This document shows positions 47,962 through 64,000 of a stretch of DNA of 64,000 nt, piece after piece. The position numbers and the translations under genes are program-made. This DNA is from an uncultured candidate division Zixibacteria bacterium (GTDB taxonomy: Bacteria; Zixibacteria; MSB-5A5; UBA10806). Under the pieces are notes generated by a model. That model made no database searches. It saw only the letters and a list, made by a program, of their open reading frames with translations, and was not told the DNA's origin. The stretch is taken from assembly GCA_963801605.1 (NCBI GenBank), contig CAWDFP010000006.1, forward strand, positions 256,001-320,000, given 5' to 3'. Position 1 is the stretch's first letter. Each line of letters begins with the position of its first letter.

Positions 47962-48888
47962 ATGCGCGTGGAACAGACTATTTCGATAGCGACTAAATCA
48001 CAAGCAGTAAAGAAAATCAGGTTCAATAAAGTCTTTTGGGCTGTGCTTTATTCAGCCGCAATTATCGTATATATATTTATTTTTTATGGCGGAGCATCGT
48101 TTTACCTGACTCCCTATATGGATCGGCCTTACAGCGCGGCATACCGGTCGCTTCGACCGGCCGGATTTACGGGTCATGCTTACGGCGTGATCGGTTCAGC
48201 GTTGATGATTTTGATGCTTTCCTATTCTCTTCGAAAAAGAGTCAGGGTATTACGAAATTGGGGGATGTTAAGCCGCTGGCTCGATACTCATATCTTTTTT
48301 GGCATTGTGGGACCGTTGCTGGTCGTGCTGCATACAGCATTCAAGGTACAAGGGTTGGTAGCTGTAAGTTTTTGGTCGATGGTGGCGGTTACTATAAGCG
48401 GTATTTTCGGGCGTTATTTGTATCTTCAGATACCGCGTAATATCCAGGGCGACGAGCTAAGTATAAAAGAGCTCGAGGAATCAAACCTGCGCTATTCACA
48501 AGAGCTTCAGAAGGAATATAATCTCTCGGAAGAGATCGTCAAACGACTGGAGGCTCGTGAAACTTTTAAGATTTCCGAAAGCGCGGGCGCTTTCAAAATC
48601 CTGGCGACGGTGTTTGTAAATGATGCGCTCCGCCCTTTTACATTTTTTACCCGAAAGCGAGAGGAGCACGCCGATCTTAAACACCTTCCCCACGAACAGC
48701 AAAAGAAGATTGTTCGTATCTTACACCGGAAGTCGATTTTGACCAGGCGCGTGCAGCTTTTAAATCACATGCAGCGTCTTTTTCACTATTGGCATGTAAT
48801 CCACAAACCGTTTGCGATAATTATGTATTTGATAATGGTGATTCATATTACGGTGGCTGTCTGGACGGGGTATAAATGGATTTTTTAA
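47962..48888 (+). CDS. Cytochrome b-like inner-membrane protein (ferric-reductase-like TM domain)
   Basis: About five TM helices with His residues positioned as heme b ligands: GHAYG, WLDTHIFFG, LHTAFK, WHVIHKPF, IHITVA. Confidence 0.75.
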   Translation: MRVEQTISIATKSQAVKKIRFNKVFWAVLYSAAIIVYIFIFYGGASFYLTPYMDRPYSAAYRSLRPAGFTGHAYGVIGSALMILMLSYSLRKRVRVLRNWGMLSRWLDTHIFFGIVGPLLVVLHTAFKVQGLVAVSFWSMVAVTISGIFGRYLYLQIPRNIQGDELSIKELEESNLRYSQELQKEYNLSEEIVKRLEARETFKISESAGAFKILATVFVNDALRPFTFFTRKREEHADLKHLPHEQQKKIVRILHRKSILTRRVQLLNHMQRLFHYWHVIHKPFAIIMYLIMVIHITVAVWTGYKWIF

Positions 48889-48902
48889 GGATTGCGATTT
48901 CA

Positions 48903-50589
48903 ATGCGTCAATTATCTCTGGTCGCTTTATTAATCTTTCTTGTTTCGGGAAATCTTTTGGCGCAGCTTTCACCCGGTGAGCTTTCACGGCCGCATGCATA
49001 TCTGGAAGGCCTGGAAAATTGCAATAAATGCCATGGTTTCGAAGAAAAACTTTCGCCGGACAAATGCCTGGCCTGCCATCTGTTTCTCGCCGCTCGAATC
49101 AAGGCCGGGCAGGGGCTTCATGCCAACACCGAACATTCCGATTGCGGAAGCTGTCACGTTGAGCATCAGGGGAGAAACTTTATTATCATACATTGGAATG
49201 GCGGCGAGGAAAAGTTCGATCATAATCAGACAGGTTACAAACTCGATGGTAAACATGCAAAATTAGAATGCCGGGCCTGTCATAAGAGTAATAATATAAA
49301 TCCAACAGCTAAGTTACAATCGGATAAGATAGATCTCAATCGCACCTTCCTTGGGACTCGAAAAGGATTGTCTTTCCTGCCATCCAGATGAACATCACGG
49401 ACAATTAGCAAAGGACTGCCTGACCTGTCATATTATGGCAGGATGGAAACCTGCCAGCGCTTTTGACCATTCCAAGGCCAAATATATCCTAACCGGCAAG
49501 CATACTGACGTAACTTGCGTGAAGTGCCATCCGTCGCTGACGAATGAAAATCAGCCATCAGGTAAAGCGTATACCAAATTTACCGGATTGCAATTCCAGA
49601 AGTGTTTGGACTGCCACAAAGACGTTCACAACAATAAATTTGGGCAGAACTGCGAGAGCTGCCATAATACATCAAGCTGGACAAGTGTAAATCAAACAAA
49701 ATTCGATCATTCGAAAACCCAGTATCCGCTCGAACTTAAACATGTTTCGGTTGCCTGTAACAAATGCCATGTTCCGGGAAAGCCGCTTGCCGGATTAAAA
49801 TTCAAGCTCTGCACAGATTGCCACGGCGATTATCATCGGGGAGATTTCGCATCCCGCGAGAAAAAGGGCGCTTGCGAAGAGTGCCATACATTGGCGGGAT
49901 TTGAGATCACTAAATTTACTGTCGACGAACATCAAAAAACAAAATATCAGTTGGCGGGAAGCCACCTGGCAGTCCCTTGCGACGGCTGCCACAAGAAGGT
50001 GATTCTCAACGGTAATAATGAGACGGTTCATATCAAATTCGAAAGCACTCGCTGCCAGGTCTGTCATACTGATCCTCATAAAGGAGCAGTTGACAATTAC
50101 ATGCCAAAGGGCGGATGTGAGTATTGCCACTTAGTAGAAAACTGGCGAGCCAGTTCTTATGATCATTCGCAAGCGAAATTTGTTCTCGACGGCAAACATA
50201 AGACGATCGCATGCAAGGCGTGCCATCAAAAAAAGGGTACTGATCCGCCTCTCTTACAGTTTACCGAACTGGCGCAAAATTGTCAGGGGTGCCATGATGA
50301 TATTCATCGCGGGCAGTTTGTCCAGGTTTCTTCCACAAAAGATGGCTCAAGCAAAGATACGGAATGCAATCGCTGCCATACAGCTGTTGCCTGGAAAACG
50401 CTTAAATTCGATCATAGCCGCGATTCCAAATTTATTCTCGATGGTGCTCATATCAAGCTTTTATGCATCCAATGTCATAAACCTGAAATGATAGACGGTA
50501 AAGCTTTTATAAAATATAAGCCGCTGGGGTCCAAATGCAGCGATTGCCACGGCGGTCAAACGATCCAAACCGGAGCGGGCCAATCATGA
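48903..50589 (+). CDS. Periplasmic multiheme cytochrome c, 20 CxxCH motifs (+1 frameshift at ~49354)
   Basis: Signal peptide MRQLSLVALL..LLA-QLSPG. 4 CxxCH in ORF 48876..49391 and 16 in ORF 49351..50589. RTFLG|LEKDCLSCH is restored by deleting one G. Confidence 0.92.
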
Positions 50590-53500
50590 AAAGGATAGCT
50601 ATAGCAACGGTTATTAGTCTGGCACTCGCCACGATACTGTTAGCGGCTAACGCTACTCAAAACCCTCACGGGAAACTTCAGTGGGAGTGCTATGATTGTC
50701 ACAATACAACGTCATGGACGTCCTTCAAAGAACCGATGACATTTCAGCATGACAAAACCGGTTTTCCTTTGGTGGGAAGACACGGTAAGGTCGATTGCGG
50801 CAATTGCCATAAAGATTTGAAGTTCTCCATGATAGGTTCCGCCTGCGCCGATTGCCATCCCGACATACACAGAGCGCAATTCGGGACAGATTGCGAAAAT
50901 TGCCATACGCCAAAAAACTGGGCAGACAATAAGGAAATAATTAATCTTCATGCCTCTAACGGCTTTCCATTGGTGGGAGTGCATGCGATTGCCGATTGTG
51001 ATGCCTGCCATATCGGCCAACAAAATAAAGAGTATGCCGGCACGCCAGTCGATTGCAAAGGGTGCCACGAAAGCAATTTCACATCTTCCACTGATCCCAA
51101 TCACAATCAGGCGGGATTTTCATCCGATTGTCAGAAATGCCATTTGCAGGTGGCATCAAGCTGGAAAAACACGACGTATCAGCACCCGGCGGCATTTGCT
51201 CTTCACGGAGGACATTTAACAATCGGCTGCAACAGTTGCCATACTCAAGGCTTCACCAATACAAGTTCGGATTGCTATTCGTGTCATCAAGCGCAGTTTA
51301 ATGCCACAACCAATCCGACACACGCCGCCTTTGGTTTCCCAACTACCTGTGCCGCCTGCCACAACGATGTCTCCTGGCAAGGAACACAATTCGATCATGT
51401 GCAGGCCAGCCAATTCGCCTTAAATGGGGCACATGCAACCGCACTGTGCACATCATGCCATATAAATAATCAACTAACGGGGCTGGCTCGCGATTGTTAT
51501 GGCTGCCACCAAAGAGATTTTTCGGGAGCCAACAACCCGGATCACGTCCAGGGCAATTTCCCTCAGACTTGTCTGACCTGCCATAATGAAAACGCCTGGT
51601 CACCGGCGACATTCGACCACAGTCAGTCGCGTTTCCCGCTTACCGGAGCCCATACCGCGCTTCAGTGCCAGGCTTGCCATGCAAACGGCTATCAGAATAC
51701 GCCATTCGATTGTTTCTCATGCCATCAGACTAATTATAATGGCGCCACGAATCCCAATCACGTTCAGAACAACTTCGATCACAACTGCGCAGTCTGCCAC
51801 AGCACATCAGCCTGGTCACCGTCGACTTTTAACCACAACAATACTACTTTCCCTCTGACCGGAGCTCACACGTCAATACAGTGCGTAGCCTGTCATTCGG
51901 CCGGTTACCAAAATACTCCGACGGATTGTTATTCATGTCATCAAGCGGCATTCAACGGAGTAAGCGATCCCAACCACGTGACGAATAATTTCAATCACGA
52001 TTGCACTCAATGCCATAACACCTCGGCCTGGACTCCAGCGACGTTCGATCACGCCAACACCCGATTCCCCTTGACGGGGGCGCATATTCCTCTGCAATGT
52101 ATCGCTTGCCATGCAAATGGATATCAAAATACGCCATACGACTGCTATTCATGTCATGCCAACGACTTCAACAACGCCACGGATCCAAATCATATCCAGA
52201 ATAATTTCAGCCATGACTGCACCCAATGCCACAATACATCAAGTTGGAGCGATGGTTTCAACCACAGTAATTTGGGATTTCCTTTAACAGGTGCGCATAC
52301 ATCCCTGCAATGTATCGCCTGTCATGCTAACGGGTATCAAAATACGCCTGCTGATTGTTATTCTTGCCATGAAGCGGCATTCAATGCGGTGACTGATCCA
52401 AACCACGTCCAAAACAATTTCAATCATGATTGTACTTTATGTCACAGTACGACTTCCTGGTCACCGGCAACATTCGATCATAGCTCAACCACGTTCCCTC
52501 TTACAGGAGCGCACACATCCGTTCAGTGCATAGCCTGTCATGCCAACGGCTACCAGAATACGCCTACGGATTGCTATTCATGTCATGAAGCAGCCTTCAT
52601 TGGAGTATCCGATCCTAATCACGTCACGAATAATTTTGATCATAACTGCACGATCTGCCACACTACCACCGGCTGGTCCCCGGCGACATTCGATCATAAC
52701 GGCACGGCTTTCCCTCTAACGGGAGCGCATATATCGCTACAGTGCATAGCCTGCCATGCCAACGGATATCAAAATACGCCGACGGATTGCTGGTCCTGTC
52801 ATCAGGCAGCCTACAATGGGGCAACCGATCCCAACCATGTTCAGAATAATTTTGATCATAATTGCACGATCTGTCACAGCACCACGGGCTGGTCGCCGTC
52901 GACATTCAATCACAACAATACCGCTTTTCCTCTAACGGGAGCGCATATATCGCTGCAGTGTATAGCCTGTCATGCCAATGGTTATCAAAATACACCTACT
53001 GATTGCTGGTCATGCCATTCCGGCGATTACAATCGAACCACGGATCCGAACCATGTTCAGAATAATTTCAGCCATGACTGTACCCAATGTCATAACACTT
53101 CAAGATGGGATGATGGTTTTAACCATGGCAATTTAGGTTTCCCCTTAACCGGAGCGCACTCGACGCTTCAATGTATCGCATGTCACGCTAATGGATATAT
53201 TAATACGCCTGCGGATTGTTATTCCTGCCATGAAACGGCATTTATTGGTGTAACCGATCCCAACCACGTTCAAAACAACTTTAATCATGATTGTACTCAA
53301 TGCCATACAACAAATGGCTGGACGCCAGCCACATTTGACCATGCAGGTACGCCATTCCCGTTAACCGGGGCACACGTTTCGGTGCAATGTGTAGCATGCC
53401 ATGCGAACGGTTATCAAAACACTCCGACGGATTGCTATGCCTGCCATCAAACAGCATACGATGGCGTAACCGATCCTAATCACGTTCAAAACAACTTCAA

Positions 53501-54857
53501 TCATGATTGTACTCAATGCCATACTACAAATGGCTGGACGCCGGCTACATTTGACCATTCAGGAACGCCATTTCCGTTAACCGGGGCACATGTTTCGGTG
53601 CAGTGCATAGCATGCCATGCGAATGGTTATCAGAATACTCCCACAGATTGCTATTCCTGCCATCAAACCGCATATAATGGCGTAACCGATCCCAATCACG
53701 TTCAAAATAATTTCGATCATAATTGCACGATCTGCCACACTACCACAGGTTGGTCACCATCGACCTTTAATCACGCTAATACTCCATTCCCATTAACAGG
53801 AGCACACACATCATTGCAGTGCGTAGCCTGCCACGCTAATGGATATCAAAACACTCCGACAGATTGCTATTCCTGCCATCAAACTGCCTATAACGGAGTG
53901 ACTGATCCTAACCACGTTCAAAACAATTTTGATCATAACTGCACGACCTGTCATACCACTTCAGGCTGGTCACCGGCCACATTCGACCATAGCAATACTA
54001 CTTTCCCCTTAACAGGAGCGCACACATCGTTGCAATGCGTAGCCTGTCATGCCAACGGATATCAAAATATACCAACCGATTGTTATTCCTGCCATCAAAC
54101 TGCCTATAACGGAGTAACTGATCCCAATCACGTTCAAAATAATTTCGATCATAATTGCACGATCTGCCACACCACTACTGGTTGGTCACCGGCCACATTC
54201 GACCATAGCAATACTACTTTCCCCCTAACAGGAGCGCACACTTCTTTACAATGCGTGGCCTGTCATGCCAACGGATATCAAAATATACCAACCGATTGTT
54301 ATTCCTGCCATCAAACTGCCTATAACGGAGTGACTGATCCCAATCACGTGTCTGATAATTTCAGCTATATTTGTACGCAGTGCCATACTACAACAGGTTG
54401 GTCCCCGGCTACGTTTAATCATAATCAGACATCCTTCCCGCTAACGGGCGCGCATGTGAGCCTGCAATGCCTGAGTTGCCACGCCAATGGATTCGACAAC
54501 ACGCCGACCGATTGTTTTGCCTGCCATCAAAGCGATTTTAATGGCGCCACAAATCCAAACCATCAGAGCGCTGGTTTCCCGACTCAATGCGTAATGTGTC
54601 ATAACACCAGCGCCTGGAGCCCATCAACATTTAATCACGACGCCCAATATTTCCCAATCTACTCAGGAAATCACCGGGGACGATGGAGTACCTGCTCGCA
54701 GTGCCATACCAATCCCTCGGATTTTAGCACATTTGAATGTATCCTCTGTCATGAGCATAACCGCACTGACACAGATTCGCACCATCAGGGCGTGCCGGGC
54801 TATCAGTACAACAGCCAGGCCTGCTATAATTGCCACCCCAGAGGAAGCGGCGGATGA
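50586..54857 (+). CDS. Giant multiheme cytochrome c, 58 CxxCH motifs, built from 72-aa triheme repeats
   Basis: ATGA overlap with the upstream stop. Signal peptide MKRIAIATVISLALA. 58 CxxCH counted manually in 1423 aa. Confidence 0.95.
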   Translation: MKRIAIATVISLALATILLAANATQNPHGKLQWECYDCHNTTSWTSFKEPMTFQHDKTGFPLVGRHGKVDCGNCHKDLKFSMIGSACADCHPDIHRAQFGTDCENCHTPKNWADNKEIINLHASNGFPLVGVHAIADCDACHIGQQNKEYAGTPVDCKGCHESNFTSSTDPNHNQAGFSSDCQKCHLQVASSWKNTTYQHPAAFALHGGHLTIGCNSCHTQGFTNTSSDCYSCHQAQFNATTNPTHAAFGFPTTCAACHNDVSWQGTQFDHVQASQFALNGAHATALCTSCHINNQLTGLARDCYGCHQRDFSGANNPDHVQGNFPQTCLTCHNENAWSPATFDHSQSRFPLTGAHTALQCQACHANGYQNTPFDCFSCHQTNYNGATNPNHVQNNFDHNCAVCHSTSAWSPSTFNHNNTTFPLTGAHTSIQCVACHSAGYQNTPTDCYSCHQAAFNGVSDPNHVTNNFNHDCTQCHNTSAWTPATFDHANTRFPLTGAHIPLQCIACHANGYQNTPYDCYSCHANDFNNATDPNHIQNNFSHDCTQCHNTSSWSDGFNHSNLGFPLTGAHTSLQCIACHANGYQNTPADCYSCHEAAFNAVTDPNHVQNNFNHDCTLCHSTTSWSPATFDHSSTTFPLTGAHTSVQCIACHANGYQNTPTDCYSCHEAAFIGVSDPNHVTNNFDHNCTICHTTTGWSPATFDHNGTAFPLTGAHISLQCIACHANGYQNTPTDCWSCHQAAYNGATDPNHVQNNFDHNCTICHSTTGWSPSTFNHNNTAFPLTGAHISLQCIACHANGYQNTPTDCWSCHSGDYNRTTDPNHVQNNFSHDCTQCHNTSRWDDGFNHGNLGFPLTGAHSTLQCIACHANGYINTPADCYSCHETAFIGVTDPNHVQNNFNHDCTQCHTTNGWTPATFDHAGTPFPLTGAHVSVQCVACHANGYQNTPTDCYACHQTAYDGVTDPNHVQNNFNHDCTQCHTTNGWTPATFDHSGTPFPLTGAHVSVQCIACHANGYQNTPTDCYSCHQTAYNGVTDPNHVQNNFDHNCTICHTTTGWSPSTFNHANTPFPLTGAHTSLQCVACHANGYQNTPTDCYSCHQTAYNGVTDPNHVQNNFDHNCTTCHTTSGWSPATFDHSNTTFPLTGAHTSLQCVACHANGYQNIPTDCYSCHQTAYNGVTDPNHVQNNFDHNCTICHTTTGWSPATFDHSNTTFPLTGAHTSLQCVACHANGYQNIPTDCYSCHQTAYNGVTDPNHVSDNFSYICTQCHTTTGWSPATFNHNQTSFPLTGAHVSLQCLSCHANGFDNTPTDCFACHQSDFNGATNPNHQSAGFPTQCVMCHNTSAWSPSTFNHDAQYFPIYSGNHRGRWSTCSQCHTNPSDFSTFECILCHEHNRTDTDSHHQGVPGYQYNSQACYNCHPRGSGG
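51590..54640 (+). repeat. Intragenic tandem repeat, ~14 copies of 216 bp
   Basis: Unit WSPATFDHxxTxFPLTGAHxSLQCxACHANGYQNTPTDCYSCHxxAxNGVTDPNHVQNNFxHxCTxCH. DNA-level similarity with synonymous divergence. Confidence 0.95.
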
Positions 54858-54881
54858 GACCTGAGATGGTAAATTAATGTT

Positions 54882-55667
54882 ATGAACATATTGTTATTGG
54901 TTTTCCCATTAGTATTGGCTCTTGGCGGAGAGAAAATAGAAACTCCGCACAAGGTTTTAAGGTTTGAGTGTAACGATTGTCATAGTTCCACAACCTGGCG
55001 GGAGGTCAAATTCGATCACGCTAAAACGGACTTTGCCCTTGAAGATCGGCATACGAAAGTAAAATGCGTCCAATGCCATTCGCTTGAGGATTTTCGTGTT
55101 GCGGGAAGTGATTGCGTTTCCTGTCATGATGATATTCATCAGGGCAAACTGGCCCATACTTGTGAACAATGCCACAGCGCCCGCGGGTGGTCCGTCTTCA
55201 ATACGTTGAAGGTTCATGCCAATACATCATTTCCCCTGATTGGCGCCCATGCCAGGCTCGATTGCCGCGCGTGTCATATCAGCGAAATAGAGGGAGAGTA
55301 TTCATTCTTGAAATCGGAGTGCATATTTTGTCATAAAACCGATTTTGAACAAGCTCAAAGTCCACCGCACACGCAGATGGGCCTGGGAACTCGCTGCGAG
55401 GATTGCCACTTTATGGTAAGTTGGCAACCAGCCAATTTTAGCGGACACGACTCGTTCTTTCCGATTTTTTCCGGCAGGCATGCCGGTGTCTGGACAAGCT
55501 GCGAAATTTGCCATGCCAGTTCGCAGGACTATACGATATTTGATTGTTTTAATTGTCACGAGCATTCCAAGGTTCGAATGGATGGTGCACATTCGGATAT
55601 CAGGAATTATGTATATGAAAGCGGCGCATGTTATTCTTGCCATCCTGGTGGCAGCGCTGGAGGATGA
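54882..55667 (+). CDS. Decaheme cytochrome c (short paralog of the giant cytochrome)
   Basis: Hydrophobic N-terminus, 10 CxxCH, C-terminus FPIFSGRH..CYSCHPGGSAGG parallels FPIYSGNH..CYNCHPRGSGG. Confidence 0.93.
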   Translation: MNILLLVFPLVLALGGEKIETPHKVLRFECNDCHSSTTWREVKFDHAKTDFALEDRHTKVKCVQCHSLEDFRVAGSDCVSCHDDIHQGKLAHTCEQCHSARGWSVFNTLKVHANTSFPLIGAHARLDCRACHISEIEGEYSFLKSECIFCHKTDFEQAQSPPHTQMGLGTRCEDCHFMVSWQPANFSGHDSFFPIFSGRHAGVWTSCEICHASSQDYTIFDCFNCHEHSKVRMDGAHSDIRNYVYESGACYSCHPGGSAGG

Positions 55668-57271
55668 TCATGAAAATATTAGCGATGCTCTTATTGCTAT
55701 TTTCGCCAGCCTATCTTCTGGCTCAAAAGACTACGTGCCATGTCAAGTATGTCTCCGGAGAAAGCATTTATATCGATGCCGGGAACGCTGACAGCCTGGC
55801 TGTAGGAGATACTCTTCGGATTGTGCACGGCGATAGCGTCACGGCAACGCTTGAGATATCTTTTGTAGCCGAAAATTCCTCGTCGTGCAAAATATTGAGT
55901 TCGTCCGGAGAAATCAGGGTAGGCGATTCGATTCAATTATCGCAAAAGCCTGTTATTGCCAAATCGATGCAGCCTGCGATTGATACCACCCAATCAGTTG
56001 CCATTCCCACGCCGGCACCGGCAGTGCCGGAACAAGCCGCAAAACCGAAGCCTGCCAGAGTCGATGGCAGCGTAGCGTTTCAGCTTTTTCGATTTACCGA
56101 TCGCAGCCCGTCCCACCTTAATTTTACCCAGCCGACCATGCGATTTAATTTAAAGGCAAACAAGCTTTTTGGCCAGGATATCACCCTTACTATCCGAACC
56201 GATAGCCGCTATAATATGCGCAGCCGCGCTTATAATATTGATGTACCTAAGAACGAATGGCGAAATCGAATATATCAGTTTTCTCTAGGCTTTGCCGGAG
56301 ACAACGCGCCATATAATTTCGAGGTTGGCCGAATCCTTTCAAATAAGGTCAGCGGAGTAGGGTATATCGATGGCTTTATGGCACAAAAAAGGGTGGGAAA
56401 TGGTTTTCAAATAGGAGGGTTTGGGGGAACTCAACCGGAGTGGCAATATTCCAATTTCCAAACCTCGCTTCAAAAATATGGGATTTTCGTAAGTTATGTA
56501 TCGGGTTCTTATCAGAAAAAACGCTTTGAATCAGCGGTGGCAGCCACTGGCGAATATCACGGTCAGATAGTTAGCCGGGAGTACTTCTTTATGAAAAACA
56601 ACCTCAATATTGGGGGCTCCTGGAACTTCTATCAAAGCAGCGAAATCGACATGAATCGCTCCTGGCGTAAGGCGAGAACTGGCAAGAGCTTATCGATAAC
56701 AAACCTGTTTCTTTCGGCGCGAGGCCGCCTATTTAAAAGGCTATCGGCATCTTTAAGTTATGATAACCGTAAAAATTATTGGACTTACGAGACGAGGTCT
56801 CTGGCCGACAGTCTGTTCGATAGTGTTCTTCGTCAGGGGATACGGACGGATTTATCGCTTCGGGCCGGAAAGGGGTTTTCGATCTTTACTAACTTTGGTT
56901 ACAATAAAAGATCAACCGATACCAGGGCCACTTACTCTTATGGAGGCGGCGTCAATAAGAGTAATTTCTTATCAACCAAGCAATTTTTTAACAGCCAGAT
57001 AACCGGTTTCTCGGGTCCTTTCACCGACGGATACAATCTATCTTTAACCGTTGGCCGATATCTGTGGGCGGGAAATATGCTCTCCCTAGGCTACGGTGCT
57101 TATGCCTATAAATTCAACGCCGCTGGAATCAGCAGACTTAACCAGTGGTTTCAAACCAACACGCAGTTCGATATAACTCATAGCGCCTATTTTTCCGGTA
57201 CATTCGAATACGATACCGGCAAGGATACCAAGGGCGAACGTCTGATTGGTGAATTAGGGTATCGTTTTTAA
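55664..57271 (+). CDS. Outer-membrane beta-barrel (porin) with small N-terminal domain
   Basis: ATGA overlap with the decaheme stop. Signal peptide, Pro-rich linker, amphipathic beta strands, C-terminal BAM-type signal GELGYRF. Confidence 0.82.
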   Translation: MIMKILAMLLLLFSPAYLLAQKTTCHVKYVSGESIYIDAGNADSLAVGDTLRIVHGDSVTATLEISFVAENSSSCKILSSSGEIRVGDSIQLSQKPVIAKSMQPAIDTTQSVAIPTPAPAVPEQAAKPKPARVDGSVAFQLFRFTDRSPSHLNFTQPTMRFNLKANKLFGQDITLTIRTDSRYNMRSRAYNIDVPKNEWRNRIYQFSLGFAGDNAPYNFEVGRILSNKVSGVGYIDGFMAQKRVGNGFQIGGFGGTQPEWQYSNFQTSLQKYGIFVSYVSGSYQKKRFESAVAATGEYHGQIVSREYFFMKNNLNIGGSWNFYQSSEIDMNRSWRKARTGKSLSITNLFLSARGRLFKRLSASLSYDNRKNYWTYETRSLADSLFDSVLRQGIRTDLSLRAGKGFSIFTNFGYNKRSTDTRATYSYGGGVNKSNFLSTKQFFNSQITGFSGPFTDGYNLSLTVGRYLWAGNMLSLGYGAYAYKFNAAGISRLNQWFQTNTQFDITHSAYFSGTFEYDTGKDTKGERLIGELGYRF

Positions 57272-57301
57272 GATCCTGATAAAGATCTGAGTGAGTATAT
57301 A

Positions 57302-58624
57302 ATGGAATCTGCAGCAATTTGGGTTATTACAGCTATTATAATTATAGGGATTATAACGCCCTATTTTGTCAAGTTCCGTAGAAGTCAGAAACACGATTTA
57401 GAGCGTATCAAGGAAGCACAACTCCTCGGATTGGACCGTCCCAGGGGACAATATCCTTTGATCGACATGTCGTTTTGTATCGGATGCGGCTCTTGTGTCA
57501 GAGCGTGCCCGGAGGAGGACGTTCTGGGCATCGTATTTGGGCGGGCGATGGTTGTCAATGGACAACGCTGTGTGGGGCATGGATACTGCGAAGCCGCCTG
57601 CCCGGTTGGGGCGCTGAAAGTGGGATTGGGCGATATTAAAACCCGACCCGATATTCCCATAACCGACGAATATGGTCAGACAAATATACCCGGCATCTAC
57701 ATAGCGGGCGAATTAGGAGGATTATCGCTTATAAGAAACGCGATAGATCAGGGACATAAGGCGATTAACCATATTTTTCAAAGCGGACGGCGCACGAATT
57801 CAAACGATATCTATGATGTTATCATCATTGGCGCCGGTCCAGCGGGGATGAGTGCGTCACTGGCGGCCATAAAGTATAATTTGCGATATGTTACGTTCGA
57901 CCAGCAACAGCCCGGCGGCACGATCCTTCAATACCCCCGTCAAAAATTGGTGATGACTCAACCGGTGGAAATTCCACTTTACGGCAAGCTCGATGCTGAG
58001 GAATATTCCAAGGAAGCGCTTCTTGAAATTTGGCAGGATGCAGTTCAAAAAAACAGCGTTTCCCTTAAATGCGACGAAAAAGTGGAACGGGTAATCACAG
58101 GTGACGGAATTATCGAAATTCAGACCCCAAAAGGAGGTTATCGAGCCGCGAATGTTATCCTGGCAATCGGACGACGCGGTACGCCAAGAAAACTGGGAGT
58201 GCCCGGGGAGGATCTTCCAAAGGTGATGTATCAACTCGTTGATGCTCAGTCGTATCAGAATAAAAATATCCTAATTGTAGGTGGTGGTGACAGTGCGGTT
58301 GAGGCGGCGGTCGGCCTGGCAAGGCAGAAAGGCAACAAGGTCACGATTTCATATCGTCAGGCTAAATTTGCGCGGGTCAAAAAGAAAAACGAGGACCGCA
58401 TTAATGAAATAATAGCGCAAAAAAAAGCCCGTCCAATATTCTTTTCGAATGTTCTCGAGATCAGAGAAAAAACGGCGCTGCTCAGGGTTGGCGACAATGA
58501 GAATCTCGAGATCCCCAACGATTATGTTTTCATATTTGCCGGGGGCGAACCGCCGTTTAAGATGCTAAATGAGATCGGAATAGTATTCGGGGGAGAGGCT
58601 AAGCCGATCCCTCTGGCATCATAA
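57302..58624 (+). CDS. Membrane-anchored ferredoxin - FAD/NAD(P)H oxidoreductase (thioredoxin-reductase/YpdA-like fold)
   Basis: N-terminal TM helix. CIGCGSCVRACP and CVGHGYCEAACP. PGIYIAGELGG. FAD motif IIGAGPAG. NADPH motif VGGGDSAVE..SYR. Confidence 0.88.
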   Translation: MESAAIWVITAIIIIGIITPYFVKFRRSQKHDLERIKEAQLLGLDRPRGQYPLIDMSFCIGCGSCVRACPEEDVLGIVFGRAMVVNGQRCVGHGYCEAACPVGALKVGLGDIKTRPDIPITDEYGQTNIPGIYIAGELGGLSLIRNAIDQGHKAINHIFQSGRRTNSNDIYDVIIIGAGPAGMSASLAAIKYNLRYVTFDQQQPGGTILQYPRQKLVMTQPVEIPLYGKLDAEEYSKEALLEIWQDAVQKNSVSLKCDEKVERVITGDGIIEIQTPKGGYRAANVILAIGRRGTPRKLGVPGEDLPKVMYQLVDAQSYQNKNILIVGGGDSAVEAAVGLARQKGNKVTISYRQAKFARVKKKNEDRINEIIAQKKARPIFFSNVLEIREKTALLRVGDNENLEIPNDYVFIFAGGEPPFKMLNEIGIVFGGEAKPIPLAS

Positions 58625-58773: not shown

Positions 58774-60096
58774 ATGAGCAATACCTTGAGATTTCAAAGC
58801 ATAGCATTAGTTATTTTAGTAATTATAATCGGATTCGCTTGCCTGTCTGCCGGGGCTATTGAGACAAGCCCCACGACGGTTGCGCCCAAATACAAGATAA
58901 GCTTCACTGAGCGTTTTCGAATCGAAACCTGGGATAATACCACCAGTTTGAATGACACTCTCCACGCCGGAACCAGCTACACCAGAAACAGATCTACCAT
59001 TATGGGGCAGTGGTTTCCCAATGAGAAGGTTGAGTTGGCTTTAAAATTCGCCAACGAGTTTCGTTCCTATTTAGTCCCTGAGAACAGGCAATTTAATATA
59101 GATGAGCTCTTTATCGACCAGCTTTATTTCAAATGGAAAAATATCGCTAACGTTCCGCTGACCGTTACATTTGGCCGTCAAAACATGCAGTTCGGCGAGG
59201 GCTTTGTGATTATGGATGGAGGCCCGCTCGATGGATCACGCAGCGCTTATTTTAACGCCGTTCGCGCCGATTATGAATTTGCCTCCAAAAAGAATATCTC
59301 CGCGTTTTATACAGTCCAGAATCGTCGGGACGATTTGCTTCCCATTATAAATAATAAGAAAAAAGCCTTGAACGAACAAAACGAGCGCTCTGGCGCTATT
59401 TATTTTAACGGAGATTTCGATTCGAGGAATTTTCAGGCTTACTTTATCCGCAAAGATGCTAAAAGCGCAACCTCGCCCCCATACAATACTCACGTTAACA
59501 CCATCGGGGAACGCACCGTTACTCCGGTATATGCGAAATTATCGCTTACCTTTGAAGGCGCTTATCAATTCGGTAAACGTGGTGGAGCCGACCTGTCTGC
59601 TTATGGCGGTTATGCTTACCTTAGTTATCCGTTTTGTTGGCCGCTGCGCTTCCCTGTGAGCATGACGATCGGGACGATATATCTCAGCGGTGATAATCCC
59701 GACACGCACAAGTATGGGGGATGGGACCCTCTCTACGGACGTTGGCCTAAGTGGAGCGATTCCTATATCTACACCTTGCTGAAAGAAAATGGCGTTGCCT
59801 ATTGGACTAATCTCTTTTCGCTCTGGGGGCGAGCGCAAATTGATATCGCAAAGGGCGTTAAATTCTCATTCGATTATCATCATCTGAGAGCTCCGTTTAA
59901 CGACACGACCAGAATGACGTTCCCCGGCGGCAAGGGCAAATATCGAGGTGAATTGGGAATATTCAAATTGACTTATCAGATCAACAAGATGGTCAATGGA
60001 CGGATTATTTGGGAGAATTTTAATCCCGGCTCGTATTACCTTCCCGGCGCTGACAAGGCCAATTGGATGCAAATTGAATTTATGTTGAGTCTATAA
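58774..60096 (+). CDS. Alginate-export-family outer-membrane beta-barrel
   Basis: Signal peptide, ERFRIETW, GRQNMQFGEG, SGDNP, C-terminal beta strand WMQIEFMLSL. Confidence 0.75.
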   Translation: MSNTLRFQSIALVILVIIIGFACLSAGAIETSPTTVAPKYKISFTERFRIETWDNTTSLNDTLHAGTSYTRNRSTIMGQWFPNEKVELALKFANEFRSYLVPENRQFNIDELFIDQLYFKWKNIANVPLTVTFGRQNMQFGEGFVIMDGGPLDGSRSAYFNAVRADYEFASKKNISAFYTVQNRRDDLLPIINNKKKALNEQNERSGAIYFNGDFDSRNFQAYFIRKDAKSATSPPYNTHVNTIGERTVTPVYAKLSLTFEGAYQFGKRGGADLSAYGGYAYLSYPFCWPLRFPVSMTIGTIYLSGDNPDTHKYGGWDPLYGRWPKWSDSYIYTLLKENGVAYWTNLFSLWGRAQIDIAKGVKFSFDYHHLRAPFNDTTRMTFPGGKGKYRGELGIFKLTYQINKMVNGRIIWENFNPGSYYLPGADKANWMQIEFMLSL

Positions 60097-60141
60097 AATA
60101 TTAGAAAATGTGATGTATTGGCGATAGAGTAAGGAGATATT

Positions 60142-61620
60142 ATGGCGCTAAAAATTATCATTCTGGCGGCCTTCGCCCTGATGACTATCACGGTGGGCAT
60201 CATCGCCTCACGCAAAGCCCGCTCGTTTTCCGATTTCTTTTTAGGCGGTAACGATATCGGCCCCTGGATGACGGCTTTCACCTATGGCGCCGCTTATTTT
60301 TCGGCGGTGCTGTTCATCGGTTTTGCAGGCAAGATCGGTTGGGATTTCGGGATGTCAGGTCTCTGGATCGCCCTGGGCAATTCTTTTATCGGAGTTCTTG
60401 GGGTCTGGTGGATATTGGGCCCGCGAATTAAAAAGATGGCCACCGAAACCGGCGCTCAGACCATGGCAGAATATTTCGAGTTGCGATACAACAGCAAAGC
60501 CCTGAATATTTACACCTCGATTTGCATTTTCATTTTCTTTATCCCCTATACGGCGGCGGTATTTATGGGGCTTTCATATTTATTTAAAGCTAATTTCAAT
60601 GTCGAATATACTACGGCATTAATTTTCATGGGAGTTTTCACTGCTATATATCTGGTATTGGGCGGTTATCGTTCAATGACGATGATCGATGTTATCTTTG
60701 GAATAATCATGATTGCCGGAGTGATTACGCTTTTTTTCAGTACCGTAACCCGAGGCGGAGGCATGGCGATGATCTTTTCCGGGTTGGAAGCCATAAATCC
60801 CAAGTTGACATCGACTATCGGTCCGCCGGGAATCTGGCCTCTTTTCAGTCTGGTCTTTTTGACAAGCGTGGCTCCTTTTGCAATGCCGCAGCTTGTGCAG
60901 AAATTTTATGCGATTAAAGATCAACGTTCGATTCGAATCGGTATGGTGGCATCAACTATATTTTCAATCCTGATCGCGGGAGTCGCTTATTTTACCGGCG
61001 CCACCGCCAGGCTTTTTATAAATCCTGAAAATGCACCGGCCGCTTTCAATAATGGCAAGCCGGTGTTCGATGCCCTGGTACCGGAATTTTTAACCAAGGC
61101 GATACCGGAAGGCCTGGCAATCCTGATATTGCTTCTGGTGCTATCGGCCTCGATGTCAACCCTGGCGGCTTTGGTGCTTATTTCAAGCTCTACGGTCTCC
61201 AAAGATGTTTATCACAGATTTATCAATAAAAAGGCGAGCGATAAGAGGCTGACGATTCTGATGAGAGCCTGTAGCGCCTTTTTTGTGCTGCTTTCAGTGA
61301 TAATGGCCTATTTCAAACCGGCAACGATCGTGGCAATTCTGGGAATCTCCTGGGGCTCGATCGGGGCGGCTTTCCTGGGGCCGTTTGTGTGGGGATTACT
61401 CAGTAAACGAACCACCAAGTTTGGCGCATTTTCATCGTCAGTGCTTGGCCTGGCGACATGTTTGATACTATATGTTAAGGGAATTTCTCCGCCCGAGGCC
61501 GGTACAATTGGAATGCTGATATCTCTGGGGGCTTGCCCGATAATAAGCTTGTTCGCATTCGGCAAAGAACCGGTTATCGCTCCCGAGGTGCTTGAAGTAG
61601 AAGCGAAGCAGCGGATATAA
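60142..61620 (+). CDS. Sodium:solute symporter (SSS family)
   Basis: DFFLGG..GPWMTA, YLVLGGYRS, MPQLVQKFYA, SASMST, ~13 TM. Confidence 0.92.
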   Translation: MALKIIILAAFALMTITVGIIASRKARSFSDFFLGGNDIGPWMTAFTYGAAYFSAVLFIGFAGKIGWDFGMSGLWIALGNSFIGVLGVWWILGPRIKKMATETGAQTMAEYFELRYNSKALNIYTSICIFIFFIPYTAAVFMGLSYLFKANFNVEYTTALIFMGVFTAIYLVLGGYRSMTMIDVIFGIIMIAGVITLFFSTVTRGGGMAMIFSGLEAINPKLTSTIGPPGIWPLFSLVFLTSVAPFAMPQLVQKFYAIKDQRSIRIGMVASTIFSILIAGVAYFTGATARLFINPENAPAAFNNGKPVFDALVPEFLTKAIPEGLAILILLLVLSASMSTLAALVLISSSTVSKDVYHRFINKKASDKRLTILMRACSAFFVLLSVIMAYFKPATIVAILGISWGSIGAAFLGPFVWGLLSKRTTKFGAFSSSVLGLATCLILYVKGISPPEAGTIGMLISLGACPIISLFAFGKEPVIAPEVLEVEAKQRI

Positions 61621-61644
61621 ATATAGCTAAATTAAAATCAATTG

Positions 61645-61673
61645 CCGGGGATTATTATACTCCCCGGTTTTTT
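61645..61673 (+). terminator. Intrinsic terminator after the SSS gene
   Basis: ccgggga..tccccgg followed by T7. Confidence 0.7.
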
Positions 61674-62269
61674 TATTTCTTCACAACTCCCAGCGGAGCG
61701 ACTACCTTACCATAAACCTCATTTAATACCTGAGCCAAACCAGCATACATCGCCAGCAAACCGCAAATGATACCTTCAATGCCGGCAACCAGCTTAACGG
61801 CCGCGCTTTCGGTGGCATCGCCCAATGCTAACAGGAAGAAAAGCAGCGCCAGGGTGCCGAAAACAAGCTGTAAGGCGCGACTAATTTTCAGGGTTCCGAT
61901 AAACATGATGGCTGTAAACAGACCCCAGATAAAAAGATAGGACGCCATAGCCGCATTACCCGGAGCAGAGCCCCATCCGATACGAGGGAAAACAAGCAAC
62001 GCCACCAGGCTCATCCAGAAAAGGCCATAGGCGGTAAAAGCGGTTGTGCCAAATGTATTTTCCTTTTTCCATTCCATAATTCCGGCGATAACCTGCGCCA
62101 AACCTCCAAAAAACAGACCCATTCCCAGTATCATGGTATCGAGCGGGTATAGCCCGGCATTGTGCAGATTAAGGAGCACAGTGGTCATTCCAAATCCGAG
62201 TAAACCTAAAGGCGCCGGATTTGCGGTAGATTCTTTAACTATGCGCACCGAAGCGGCGGCGGTATCCAT
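61673..62269 (-). CDS. satP: Acetate/succinate uptake transporter (GPR1/FUN34/YaaH family)
   Basis: Signature [30 protein letters not shown]. Confidence 0.93.
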
Positions 62270-62440
62270 TACTTTCCTCCATTCATCAATTTAGTATCCG
62301 ATCATCGACCTTATTTAATATCCCATGCCACGTTTGTCCATAATAATTCCGGGGTTACGATATGCTTGCTTAGTTTGAGATTTCATTATAACTTATACTT
62401 TGAAATGGAATATTAAACAATTAAGGCGGAATCAAACCCT

Positions 62441-63358
62441 ATGAAATTTGAAAATATCATTTTGCACGAGGTGGGGCCACGAGATGGTTTACAGGTCGAA
62501 AAGACCAGTGTGCCGCTGGATGAGAAAATTCGCTGGATAGATGGTGTTCTTAAAAGTGGAATCGATATCATTCAGCTTGGCTCCTTTGTCAATCCGGAAA
62601 AGGTGCCTCAAATGGCCGATACCGATAAGCTTTTCGCGCATTACGCATCGGTGGATAAAAAAGGAGTGATTTTATCGGCATTAGTGCTCAATGAAAAGGG
62701 GTTGGAGCGTGGCCTCGCTTGCGGAGTTGAGATGTTCTGCATGGGTGTTTCCGCCAGTGAGACTCATAGCAAGAAAAACACCGGCATGACCACGTCGGAG
62801 GCGTTGGGGCGAATTATACCGATGGCTAAACAAGCGCAAGCGGCCGGGAAAAAAGTACAGGTTTCGATTCAATCGGCGTTCGGTTGCGGTTTCGAGGGGC
62901 CAGTACCGGCGGAAAGAGTGCTTTCAATCGCCAAAGAGTATTTTGCCAATGACATTAGAAATATCAGCTTAGCCGATACAGCCGGACATGGCAACCCCGT
63001 TCAGGTTGAAGAGCTTTTCGGATCGCTAAAAGAACTTGAACCTGATGCACAGCTGGCCTGCCATTTCCATAATACTTATGGCCTGGGGTTAGCTAACTGC
63101 TACGCCGCGTTGAAATCAGGTGTTACATCCTTTGAGAGCGCATTTGGCGGTTTGGGCGGATGCCCCTTTACAAAGCTTCCGGCCGGTAATGTTTCCACCG
63201 AAGACCTGGTTCATTCGCTGCAGCGCATGGGGCTTCGTCGCGATATCAAGCTTGATATTCTGCTCGATGTGGCTCGTATGGTGGCAGGCTACTTTAACAG
63301 AGAGCTGCCGGGCTTTATCCTGAAATCCGGATCAATTGTTGATTTTAAGAAAGTCTAA
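62441..63358 (+). CDS. Hydroxymethylglutaryl-CoA lyase family protein
   Basis: EVGPRDGLQ, SLADTAG, HFHNTYG, GGLGGCPF..GNVSTED. Confidence 0.92.
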   Translation: MKFENIILHEVGPRDGLQVEKTSVPLDEKIRWIDGVLKSGIDIIQLGSFVNPEKVPQMADTDKLFAHYASVDKKGVILSALVLNEKGLERGLACGVEMFCMGVSASETHSKKNTGMTTSEALGRIIPMAKQAQAAGKKVQVSIQSAFGCGFEGPVPAERVLSIAKEYFANDIRNISLADTAGHGNPVQVEELFGSLKELEPDAQLACHFHNTYGLGLANCYAALKSGVTSFESAFGGLGGCPFTKLPAGNVSTEDLVHSLQRMGLRRDIKLDILLDVARMVAGYFNRELPGFILKSGSIVDFKKV

Positions 63359-63375
63359 TATCGCAGGAGAATAAA

Positions 63376-64000
63376 ATGAAGCTTCTTGAAAAAATCCGCG
63401 TGATCGATATGACCAATGTCCTTTCGGGACCGTTTACCACGTTACATCTATCGCTATTAGGCGCCGAGGTAATTAAAATAGAAAATCCCGATGGTGGAGA
63501 TTTAGCTCGAAAACTGGGCAATGTCCCCAAGCTCAACAAAGAACTGATGGGCACGAGTTTCTTAGCACAGAACGCCAACAAGAAATCGTTAACGTTGAAC
63601 TTGAAAGTACCCGAGGCCAAGGAGATTTTCGGGAAGCTTCTAAAAACAGCCGATGTGGTAGTTGAAAATTTTCGTCCCGGCGTGATGGCCCGGTTGGGTT
63701 TCTCATACGAAGAGATCTGCAAGATTAATCCCAAAATTGTTTATTGCGCTATCTCGGGTTTCGGGCAGACCGGTCCGGATGCTTTTAAGCCAGCCTATGA
63801 CCAGATTATCCAGGGGCTTTCCGGAGTGATGGATGTCAATGGAGACGAGCGGCTTCATCCTCTGCGCGCCGGTTTCCCGGTTTGCGATACCGTCGGCGGC
63901 CTGAATGCCGCCTTTGCGATCATGGCAGCGTTATATCATCGGGAACGAACCGGTGAGGGTCAGTTTATTGATATCGCCTTGCTTGATGCTATTATGCCGC
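63376..64000 (+). CDS. Family III (CaiB/BaiF) CoA-transferase, runs off the window
   Basis: Not in the ORF track. Manual translation: MKLLEKIRVIDMTNVLSGPF..LGAEVIKIE..NANKKSLTLNLK..ADVVVENFRPGVM..SGFGQTGP. Confidence 0.93.
   Translation, partial: MKLLEKIRVIDMTNVLSGPFTTLHLSLLGAEVIKIENPDGGDLARKLGNVPKLNKELMGTSFLAQNANKKSLTLNLKVPEAKEIFGKLLKTADVVVENFRPGVMARLGFSYEEICKINPKIVYCAISGFGQTGPDAFKPAYDQIIQGLSGVMDVNGDERLHPLRAGFPVCDTVGGLNAAFAIMAALYHRERTGEGQFIDIALLDAIMP

What the first reader, a model, noticed from the sequence alone, without database searches (positions are those of the whole stretch)
47962..58624. Candidate complete NAD(P)H-to-outside electron conduit with 88 c-hemes, not built from Mtr/Pcc-type repeat sequences
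Seen: six tightly packed co-oriented genes, two with ATGA overlaps. They encode a His-rich cytochrome b-like membrane protein, 20-, 58- and 10-heme cytochromes sharing an FxH-x4-FPLxGxH-x3-CxxCH repeat, a beta-barrel and a TM-anchored 2xFe-S/FAD/NADPH-binding enzyme. Known: porin-cytochrome complexes (MtrCAB, PccH/Pcc types) move electrons across the outer membrane but are normally fed from the quinone pool via NapC/NirT-type (CymA), Cbc or ImcH proteins. No such quinol dehydrogenase is in this operon. Inference: a self-contained chain NAD(P)H -> FAD -> Fe-S -> heme b -> periplasmic 20-heme -> decaheme-in-porin -> 58-heme wire, or the reverse direction. It would couple extracellular electron transfer directly to the cytoplasmic pyridine nucleotide pool.
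Basis: partly seen in the sequence, partly recalled or inferred. Interest (0 to 1): 0.88.

Follow-up and report, generated by a model that had tools for sequence, protein, structure and literature searches.

The report
Flavoprotein-fed porin-cytochrome electron conduit
Six real, tightly packed genes encode what looks like a haem wire from the cell interior to the outside, of a type predicted in 2017 (PCC3) but never tested, here tied to an iron-sulfur flavoenzyme that probably feeds it from cytoplasmic NADPH instead of from membrane quinones.

Summary
Observation confirmed: 88 CxxCH motifs in six co-oriented genes. The 20-haem gene carries a one-base frameshift, probably an assembly error. The claim of a wholly new conduit is not supported. 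Gene order, haem numbers and the membrane protein's two WX3HX13H and one SGxxG motifs fit PCC3 (He 2017), although PCC3 sequences could not be compared directly. The membrane-anchored 2xFe-S/YpdA-like flavoprotein is present in 61 of 61 testable genome loci and in 49 of 50 porin-bearing genomes of the phylum; the exception also lacks the cytochrome b. It is fused to the cytochrome b in 19 of 120 listed long homologues, and distant cytochrome b homologues pair with an unrelated FNR-type reductase. The decahaem is an optional, repeat-less paralogue of the 58-haem protein (21 of 57 loci), so it is not an obligatory porin insert. Best model: NADPH to FAD to Fe-S to two b haems to 20-haem to porin plus long cytochrome, running outward and costing membrane potential. 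Nothing is shown biochemically. This scan found the same cassette before on other DNA (8 notes listed). Verdict: new variant of a known, untested kind.

The parts
47962..48888 (+). Inner-membrane dihaem cytochrome b-like protein (PCC3-type IMP), 308 aa, five predicted TM helices, His110/124 and His281/295, SGxxG, about 110-aa cytoplasmic helical insert
   Evidence: Motifs: (76 of 77 homologues with two HX13H, 77 of 77 SGxxG); invariant His; AlphaFold model pLDDT 87.6; charge bias; He 2017 section 17:
48876..50589 (+). Periplasmic 20-haem c7-repeat cytochrome with Sec signal peptide; split by a one-base frameshift near 49352-49355 (ORFs 48876-49391 with 4 haems and 49351-50589 with 16 haems), probably an assembly error
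   Evidence: 50 of 71 homologous ORFs (fragments included) have exactly 20 haems
50586..54857 (+). 58-haem cytochrome, 1423 aa, Sec signal without lipobox: 7-haem head, 16 three-haem 72-aa repeats, 3-haem cap; T/N/A/S-rich; 24.5 aa per haem
   Evidence: Pfam Cytochrome_C7; family counts follow 10+3k in 51 of 64 capped homologues
51596..54349 (+). 216-bp tandem array (12.8 copies, 74% matches) encoding the three-haem repeat
54882..55667 (+). Decahaem cytochrome: zero-repeat paralogue of the 58-haem protein (same head and cap); optional in the family
   Evidence: present before the porin in 21 of 57 loci; no DmsE/MtrA family hit
55664..57271 (+). Outer-membrane 22-strand beta-barrel ending in Phe, with a small N-terminal beta-domain (residues about 23-92) on a flexible linker and no TonB-receptor-sized plug
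   Evidence: AlphaFold model; best structural matches TonB-dependent transporter barrels, Z 19.5, rmsd 4.0, 362 aligned; weak ExtJ (E 1.3e-4) and FlgT_C (E 0.004) hits, both below cut-off
57302..58624 (+). Membrane-anchored flavoenzyme, 440 aa: N-terminal TM helix, two Fe-S motifs (second with His), then a circularly permuted YpdA/TrxR-fold FAD/NADPH domain without the CxxC redox pair
   Evidence: no CxxC past residue 130 in 59 of 59 homologues; positive charges after the TM helix and no Tat motif

Best explanation
A PCC3-type envelope-spanning cytochrome conduit built of two modules. Inner module: a cytoplasm-facing, membrane-anchored flavoenzyme oxidises NADPH at FAD and hands single electrons through its two Fe-S clusters to the cytoplasmic b haem of the five-helix membrane protein, across to its periplasmic b haem, and on to the 20-haem periplasm-spanning cytochrome; this is a split NOX/MsrQ-like arrangement. 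Outer module: the 22-strand barrel plus the long repeat cytochrome (or its short decahaem paralogue as an alternative tip) carries electrons to acceptors outside the cell. The likely direction is outward. It bypasses complex I and spends membrane potential, so it is more an electron valve (redox balancing, low-potential export, metal reduction) than an energy-conserving respiratory chain. Shown: genes, motifs, co-occurrence, fusions, predicted folds. Inferred: haem b binding, NADPH specificity, direct flavoenzyme-to-cytochrome b transfer, location of the 58-haem protein, direction and purpose.
For: Flavoprotein present in 61 of 80 genome loci with none missing where the flank allowed a test (19 too short), and in 33 of 80 metagenome loci (47 too short). 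It keeps to the operon in three positions, 20 of 61 directly beside the membrane protein. Same 14 of 41 relatives carry both genes. Porin in 50 of 151 and flavoprotein in 49 of 151 phylum genomes, all 49 among the 50; the exception G152 lacks the cytochrome b and 20-haem gene as well. Natural fusions among 120 listed of 294 long homologues: 19 flavoprotein-cytochrome b (17 keep both HX13H in the matched segment; one is a triple fusion with the 20-haem cytochrome; one is from the isolate Rohdeia mirabilis), 9 flavoprotein-20-haem, 27 flavoprotein-long cytochrome via an internal signal-like segment. Distant cytochrome b homologues sit beside an unrelated FAD/NAD/2Fe-2S reductase in 5 of the 5 loci of that type that I opened (4 confirmed by Pfam) or a cNMP/YpdA-like/Fe-S protein in 2 Sphingobium loci. 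GGGDSA and SYR motifs in 56 of 59 homologues fit NADPH use (established knowledge of the TrxR fold). Precedent: MsrQ takes electrons from a cytosolic NADH oxidoreductase, with quinone not the donor (PMC12525009, abstract).
Against: No biochemical or expression evidence exists. He et al. read the same membrane protein as quinone-active, and their four-gene PCC3 definition has no flavoprotein, so the membrane protein may work without it. The genome has a NapC/NirT-family protein, complex I and other cytochrome clusters, so ordinary quinone routes are available. Co-occurrence counts are among kin and among loci picked as the best 80 of 167 and the best 80 of 581 by likeness to the query. The fusion hosts' gene neighbourhoods were not seen, so some may lack a porin; many homologous reductase-cytochrome b-cytochrome c triplets have no porin at all. 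The flavoprotein-long cytochrome fusions may be cleaved. The long cytochrome has no lipobox or known export signal in the N-termini listed, so its outside location is unproven. The fold match of the membrane protein to a dihaem cytochrome b (5oc0, Z 7.2, rmsd 3.2, 130 of 174 aligned) is within background.
Confidence: 0.58

Rival explanations
1. Quinone-linked PCC3 as He et al. drew it: the membrane protein exchanges electrons with the quinone pool; the flavoprotein is an accessory NADPH:quinone (or NADPH:ferredoxin) input that tops up the pool or the same haems.
For: He 2017 section 17; PCC3 defined without a flavoprotein; extra invariant His275/His278 beside the fifth helix could be a quinone site (inference); MsrQ binds ubiquinone besides flavin.
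Against: Uncleavable flavoprotein-cytochrome b fusions, joint loss in G152 and pairing of distant homologues with an unrelated reductase point to the enzyme as the dedicated partner.
Confidence: 0.2
2. Non-respiratory reductase or charge store: the module supplies reductant to the periplasm and cell surface (iron or other metal solubilisation, detoxification, oxidative defence), with the long cytochrome as a capacitor that may stay periplasmic.
For: Porin-less reductase-cytochrome b-cytochrome c triplets on plasmids near copper-handling or hydrogenase genes; whole five-gene cassette plus ccsA on a plasmid of Emticicia oligotrophica (an aerobe, recalled); electron export from NADPH spends membrane potential (established knowledge). 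This rival shares the electron path of the best explanation and differs in purpose and end point.
Against: The barrel and long cytochrome persist as a two-gene module on their own; 19-73 haems in steps of three fit a length-tuned wire; a Lentimicrobium with 61- and 20-haem cytochromes and a porin was recovered only from conductive-carbon incubations (PMC13013709 passages; identity with this family inferred from haem numbers only).
Confidence: 0.14
3. Inward conduit: electrons from an outside donor (Fe(II) mineral, cathode, partner cell) reduce NADP+ directly.
For: PCC3 was found in Fe(II) oxidisers; TrxR-fold ferredoxin-NADP+ reductases are among the solved relatives of the flavoprotein.
Against: Moving electrons inward against the membrane potential to NADP+ (about -320 mV) needs a donor near -470 mV or lower, far below Fe(II) minerals (established redox arithmetic); in ES-1 the extracellular PCC3 cytochrome was not detected in magnetite proteomes (PMC11429942 passages).
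Confidence: 0.08

Closest known systems
PCC3 porin-cytochrome cluster (He, Barco, Emerson, Roden 2017, PMC5566968; Gallionellaceae pangenome PMC9900912; Sideroxydans lithotrophicus ES-1 Slit_1446-1449)
   Same: Order membrane protein, periplasmic cytochrome, long cytochrome, porin; about 300-aa membrane protein with two WX3HX13H and SGxxG; about 21-haem periplasmic and highly variable long cytochrome; 22-39 aa per haem; low-complexity repeats; 22-strand porin as in Leptothrix cholodnii.
   Different: A constant fifth gene (Fe-S/flavoenzyme) and an optional decahaem paralogue; hosts are Zixiibacteriota, Ignavibacteriota, Calditrichota, KSB1, Fidelibacterota, Bacteroidota and Acidobacteriota, not Proteobacteria. 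Sequence homology to ES-1 proteins was not testable. PCC3 itself has never been functionally tested.
Porin-less 'MHC + HX13H membrane protein + other redox protein' clusters (He 2017 section 18 passage and Table S6)
   Same: A redox protein beside an HX13H membrane protein and a multihaem cytochrome. Plasmid loci with matching sizes hold homologues of this membrane protein and either an FNR/2Fe-2S or a cNMP/YpdA-like/Fe-S enzyme; the match to the table rows is by size only.
   Different: No porin or giant cytochromes in most; the paper names no function for the redox protein and judged extracellular transfer unlikely for them.
NOX/FRE ferric-reductase domain family, MsrQ with its cytosolic NADH oxidoreductase (PMC12525009)
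   Same: HX13H pairs on helices 3 and 5; cytoplasmic pyridine-nucleotide flavoenzyme feeding a membrane haem protein that reduces a periplasmic partner.
   Different: No PF01794 hit; donor enzyme is a YpdA-like permutant with its own Fe-S clusters; acceptor is a haem wire and porin.
YpdA/Bdr bacillithiol disulfide reductase and TrxR-fold ferredoxin-NADP+ reductases (PDB 7a7b, 7a76, 3ab1, 6gas)
   Same: Best solved relatives, E 6e-47; no CxxC pair.
   Different: Below the family cut-off (158 vs 340 bits); the C-terminal FAD motif is moved in front of the Rossmann fold; TM anchor and two Fe-S clusters added.
MtrCAB/MtoAB and Geobacter OmbB-type conduits; Geobacter c7 polymer (PDB 3ov0/3oue)
   Same: Porin plus multihaem logic; the repeat unit is a c7-type trihaem.
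   Different: No family hit for the porin; DmsE/MtrA scores 49 and 42 against a cut-off of 192, none for the decahaem; 22 strands against 26 in MtrB (recalled).
Lentimicrobium giant porin-cytochrome cluster (PMC13013709, 2026)
   Same: Adjacent 61- and 20-haem cytochromes with a porin in a Bacteroidota genome; 61 = 10+3x17 fits this family's rule.
   Different: Sequences not seen; the passages read mention no membrane protein or flavoprotein and call it unlike characterised modules.

Membership tests
PCC3 | About 300-aa, five-helix inner-membrane protein with two WX3HX13H and one SGxxG | tested here: met
   308 aa; both motifs and SGIFG; helices in model; 52 of 77 homologues keep both W, 76 of 77 both HX13H
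PCC3 | Periplasmic multihaem cytochrome of about 21 haems | tested here: met
   20 haems across the frameshift; 50 of 71 homologous ORFs have 20
PCC3 | Second, large, repeat-rich cytochrome; 22-39 residues per haem | tested here: met
   58 haems, 24.5 aa per haem, 72-aa repeats
PCC3 | Beta-barrel porin in the cluster | tested here: met
   22-strand model
PCC3 | Order membrane protein, periplasmic cytochrome, long cytochrome, porin | tested here: met
   against Slit_1446-1449
PCC3 | Sequence homology to the proteobacterial PCC3 proteins | not testable with these tools
   No PCC3 reference sequence could be fetched
PCC3 | Extracellular location of the long cytochrome | not testable with these tools
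   Sec-type signal, no lipobox
PCC4 | Three periplasmic cytochromes of 4, 5 and 10 haems and no extracellular cytochrome | tested here: not met
   20, 58 and 10 haems against He 2017 section 16
MtrCAB/MtoAB | DmsE/MtrA decahaem and MtrB/PioB porin family matches | tested here: not met
   TIGR03508 far below cut-off, no porin family hit
Ferric reductase TM domain (PF01794; NOX, MsrQ) | Profile match | tested here: not met
   No hit at E 0.01; His spacing is shared
Dihaem cytochrome b fold | Structural likeness to a solved dihaem b protein | tested here: inconclusive
   5oc0 Z 7.2, rmsd 3.2, 130 aligned, within background
YpdA/Bdr (TIGR04018) | Score above cut-off and native domain order | tested here: not met
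   158 vs 340 bits; circularly permuted

The most novel reading that the evidence does not exclude
A widespread, mobile, quinone-independent 'NADPH oxidase with a wire': cytoplasmic NADPH is exported across both membranes at low potential, helped by the membrane potential, letting fermenters and sediment heterotrophs (Zixiibacteriota, Ignavibacteriota, Calditrichota, Bacteroidota, Acidobacteriota) dump electrons to minerals, conductive carbon or methanogenic partners at potentials that menaquinol-fed Mtr/Pcc conduits cannot reach; wire length is tuned in three-haem steps by a 216-bp repeat.
Probability: 0.35. Interest if true: 0.85.

Novelty: new variant of a known kind. Interest (0 to 1): 0.56.

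Why it matters
Characterised Gram-negative extracellular electron conduits are fed from quinol (established knowledge). A conduit fed straight from NAD(P)H would be a second design, would reassign the role of the PCC3 membrane protein, and would explain how organisms regarded as fermenters take part in mineral, electrode or interspecies electron transfer. About a third of sampled genomes of this phylum carry it (50 of 151). It is testable now: an isolate has the cassette with its own maturation gene on a plasmid (Emticicia oligotrophica DSM 17448), and an isolate has a single-chain flavoprotein-cytochrome b fusion (Rohdeia mirabilis).

Tried and rejected
Complex prediction of membrane protein plus flavoprotein with two haems: no answer (scores 0.02 and 0.01 against a mark of 0.32), no evidence either way. 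Sequencing runs: none was listed, so neither the frameshift nor expression could be checked. Foldseek found no match for the membrane protein at E 0.001. No Mtr/Omb porin appeared among the 50 rows of either porin fold search, which does not exclude likeness. Attempts to obtain proteobacterial PCC3 sequences failed: plasmid searches with porin, decahaem and 20-haem found only Emticicia; plasmid loci gave handles without relatives; viral contigs gave nothing; He's Tables S3 and S4 yielded captions only. ESM Atlas returned only unnamed clusters. The membrane-protein search for longer forms found one fusion only, to cNMP/Fe-S domains; the flavoprotein search found the rest. Neighbouring genes are not part of the system: of 171 loci matched by the membrane protein control, MATE and symporter relatives occurred in 1 each and four other neighbours in 0 (the SatP test used the wrong strand and was redone). 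Promoter/terminator scan was uninformative. The MqnA family was not found in this 87% complete genome; not used as evidence. Distance correlations of 0.88-0.93 among the three proteins in 41 loci are confounded by kinship; the tree was the quick one and no clade test was run. Literature: ten searches showed no paper describing the flavoprotein with a PCC3-type cluster; one search listed only 25 of 389 papers, and subscription papers are missing from the library. PMC8478452 and PMC9386147 passages added nothing specific.
Full report
Observation. The six genes are present and co-oriented at 47962-58624. CxxCH counts are 4+16, 58 and 10, total 88, and two ATGA overlaps are real. The 20-haem gene is broken by a one-base frameshift near 49352-49355 in a stretch that six homologous loci read through. 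A tblastn survey found 6 split against 30 intact loci in this assembly, among them uvrA and typA, so this is probably an assembly error. The repeat has four, not three, residues before CxxCH (15 against 0 matches). The nearest named loci are Candidatus Zixiibacteriota (63% for gene 1), which is the likely phylum (inference).

Anatomy of the cytochromes. The 58-haem protein is a 7-haem head, 16 copies of a 72-residue three-haem unit and a 3-haem cap (DNA array of period 216). Each unit has three conserved extra histidines, so the haems are probably bis-His (inference). The unit is c7-like (weak match to a Geobacter c7 polymer). The decahaem is the same head and cap with no repeats. Of 64 capped homologues, 51 have 10+3k haems, up to 73; of 71 ORFs of the other type, fragments included, 50 have exactly 20. 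A fixed-length cytochrome beside a freely extendable one is what a periplasm spanner and an outer wire would look like (inference). A short 8-10-haem gene precedes the porin in only 21 of 57 loci, and two loci in one genus have only a 36- or 48-haem cytochrome and the porin. The long cytochrome is therefore the barrel's constant partner, and the decahaem an optional short form. None of the long-cytochrome N-termini listed shows a lipobox, so how it reaches the surface is unexplained.

Barrel. The model has 22 strands from residue 130 to 532, a small N-terminal beta-domain and a low-confidence linker. Its best structural matches are TonB-dependent transporter barrels (Z 19.5, rmsd 4.0, 362 aligned), whose lumen holds a plug of about 150 residues (established knowledge); a single file of c7 units could fit (inference, not modelled).

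Membrane protein. It has both WX3HX13H motifs and SGxxG, kept as two HX13H in 76 of 77 and SGxxG in 77 of 77 homologues. These are the defining motifs of the PCC3/PCC4 inner-membrane protein (He 2017 section 17). Charge bias and the model give N-in, five helices, one histidine pair on each side of the membrane and a cytoplasmic insert of about 110 residues. The structural likeness to the dihaem CybB is within background.

Flavoprotein. An N-terminal helix is followed by positive charges and there is no Tat motif, so the enzyme faces the cytoplasm. It has two Fe-S motifs, the second with an invariant histidine and the first losing one cysteine in 12 of 57. The flavin domain is closest to YpdA (E 6e-47) but below the family cut-off, lacks CxxC in 59 of 59, and is circularly permuted: the motif that ends YpdA and the Sphingobium relative stands before the Rossmann fold. 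It reads as a ferredoxin-NADP+ reductase with built-in ferredoxin (inference).

Coupling. In the best 80 of 167 genome loci the flavoprotein is present in 61 and untestable in 19; in the best 80 of 581 metagenome loci it is present in 33 and untestable in 47; no testable locus lacked it. It lies after the porin (40), before the membrane protein (11), just after it (9) or was unclassed (1). The same 14 of 41 relatives carry both genes. In 151 genomes of the phylum the porin occurs in 50 and the flavoprotein in 49 of those; the exception, a single-contig genome, also lacks the membrane protein, and a second porin copy in G125 likewise stands with the long cytochrome alone. These sets are kin and may overlap. 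Stronger are the fusions: of 120 listed among 294 long homologues, 19 join flavoprotein and membrane protein (two sequence groups, one in the isolate Rohdeia mirabilis, one extended by the 20-haem cytochrome), 9 join it to the 20-haem type, 27 to the long type through an internal signal-like segment, 39 carry a 6-9-haem domain in front, 1 joins the porin and 25 are other. Their neighbourhoods were not seen. Distant homologues of the membrane protein on plasmids abut an unrelated FAD/NAD/2Fe-2S reductase or a cNMP/YpdA-like/Fe-S protein, then a 7- or 10-haem cytochrome, without a porin. Two unrelated NAD(P)H enzymes in the same slot argue that the slot is 'cytoplasmic electron donor'.

Mechanism. 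Most likely NADPH to FAD to Fe-S to two b haems to 20-haem to barrel-bound long cytochrome to an outside acceptor (0.58). MsrQ is a precedent for a haem protein of this kind fed by a cytosolic oxidoreductase (PMC12525009, abstract only). By established redox arithmetic, outward flow starts at about -320 mV and is pulled by the membrane potential, which it spends; inward flow needs a donor near -470 mV. So the system suits electron disposal or low-potential export better than energy conservation. Against: He et al. read the membrane protein as quinone-active; the genome has a NapC/NirT-family gene, complex I, an alternative complex III-like cluster and two more porin-cytochrome-like clusters (the last two named from ORF inspection, not family scans), and cymA is remote from mtr in Shewanella too (recalled), so absence from the operon proves nothing.

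What is known. He 2017 (PMC5566968: abstract, sections 15-17, passages of 18, text of Figure S1, Table S6; Tables S3 and S4 unreadable, and they may list hosts or genes that bear on novelty) defines PCC3 with four genes in Proteobacteria and lists porin-less clusters with an unnamed 'other redox protein'. Passages of PMC9900912, 10.1101/2025.02.27.639646 and PMC11429942 confirm haem ranges, gene order and that function is untested (bioRxiv supplements closed). PMC7399161 (sections 18, 20, passages) notes variable haem numbers in similar clusters. PMC13013709 (passages; supplement search empty, one file unreadable) reports a 61- plus 20-haem porin cluster in a Lentimicrobium from conductive-carbon cultures, probably this family by its numbers. 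Ten searches showed no paper linking the flavoprotein to such a conduit. All PCC3 features that could be tested are met, but homology to the proteobacterial proteins could not be tested, so I file it as PCC3-like, not as a proven member. This scan reported the same cassette in other genomes before (look-alikes in 32 windows, 8 notes shown); my reading was recorded before seeing them, and they are not independent support. The fusions, the joint loss, the permutation and the decahaem paralogy were found here.

Verdict. Real, conserved, a new variant of a predicted but untested kind; interest 0.56. The bold reading, a quinone-free NADPH-to-outside conduit used by fermenters, has probability about 0.35 and would merit 0.85.

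Noticed in passing
G000:C6:773381-788176: Second porin-cytochrome-like cluster in the same genome: 42-haem cytochrome, several 6-7-haem cytochromes, a 539-aa probable barrel and lipoproteins; one small cytochrome looks frameshifted.
   Followed up: no
G000:C7:1-9697: Cytochrome c maturation-like genes beside a 13-haem cytochrome with a 428-aa probable barrel, and a divergent Fe-S/membrane/13-haem set (named by inspection).
   Followed up: no
G000:C7:351255-352754: 499-aa NapC/NirT-family protein with six haem motifs and an extra c3/c7-like C-terminal part.
   Followed up: partly
G000:C6:429978-439621: Alternative complex III-like operon followed by a cytochrome oxidase subunit II-like gene (by inspection).
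   Followed up: no
G000:C6:861620-866203: Adjacent 10- and 19-haem genes of another type.
   Followed up: no
window 58774-64000: Alginate-export-like barrel, sodium:solute symporter, SatP-family acetate transporter (minus strand), HMGL-like enzyme and a probable CoA transferase; not co-conserved with the conduit.
   Followed up: partly
L095:9860-21658 (Emticicia oligotrophica pEMTOL02): Complete cassette (281-aa membrane protein, flavoprotein, 23- and 40-haem cytochromes, porin) behind a 1028-aa ccsA gene and divergent from an ECF sigma factor on a 100-kb plasmid of an isolate.
   Followed up: partly
P0198-P0240: 39 proteins, several named as Acidobacteriota, with FHA domains, a TM helix, 6-9 c haems, a second TM helix and then the same Fe-S/flavin module: a possible phospho-regulated one-chain transmembrane redox device.
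   Followed up: no
P0155-P0185 ('other' class): 25 proteins, several from Myxococcota, with the flavoprotein fused to long low-complexity and TPR tails.
   Followed up: no
L096:7974-14693 (Alteromonas macleodii plasmid): FNR/2Fe-2S reductase, HX13H membrane protein and 7-haem cytochrome directly upstream of a [NiFe]-hydrogenase cluster.
   Followed up: partly
L067, L071, L072, L078, L089-L091, L123, L148, L149, L152, L160, L173, L174: A roughly 200-aa TPR protein (weak CcmH/CycH-type hit) is inserted after the membrane-protein gene in 14 loci, perhaps a maturation helper.
   Followed up: partly
L029, L049, L051, L054, L056: Five loci, three named Ignavibacteria, also have exactly 58 haems (53-55% identity) but no decahaem; Zixiibacteriota and Ignavibacteriota rows are intermixed on the quick flavoprotein tree, hinting at transfer of the cassette (untested).
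   Followed up: partly
whole assembly: Frame breaks in housekeeping genes (uvrA at C6 about 360300, typA at C6 about 838900) suggest unpolished indels throughout.
   Followed up: partly
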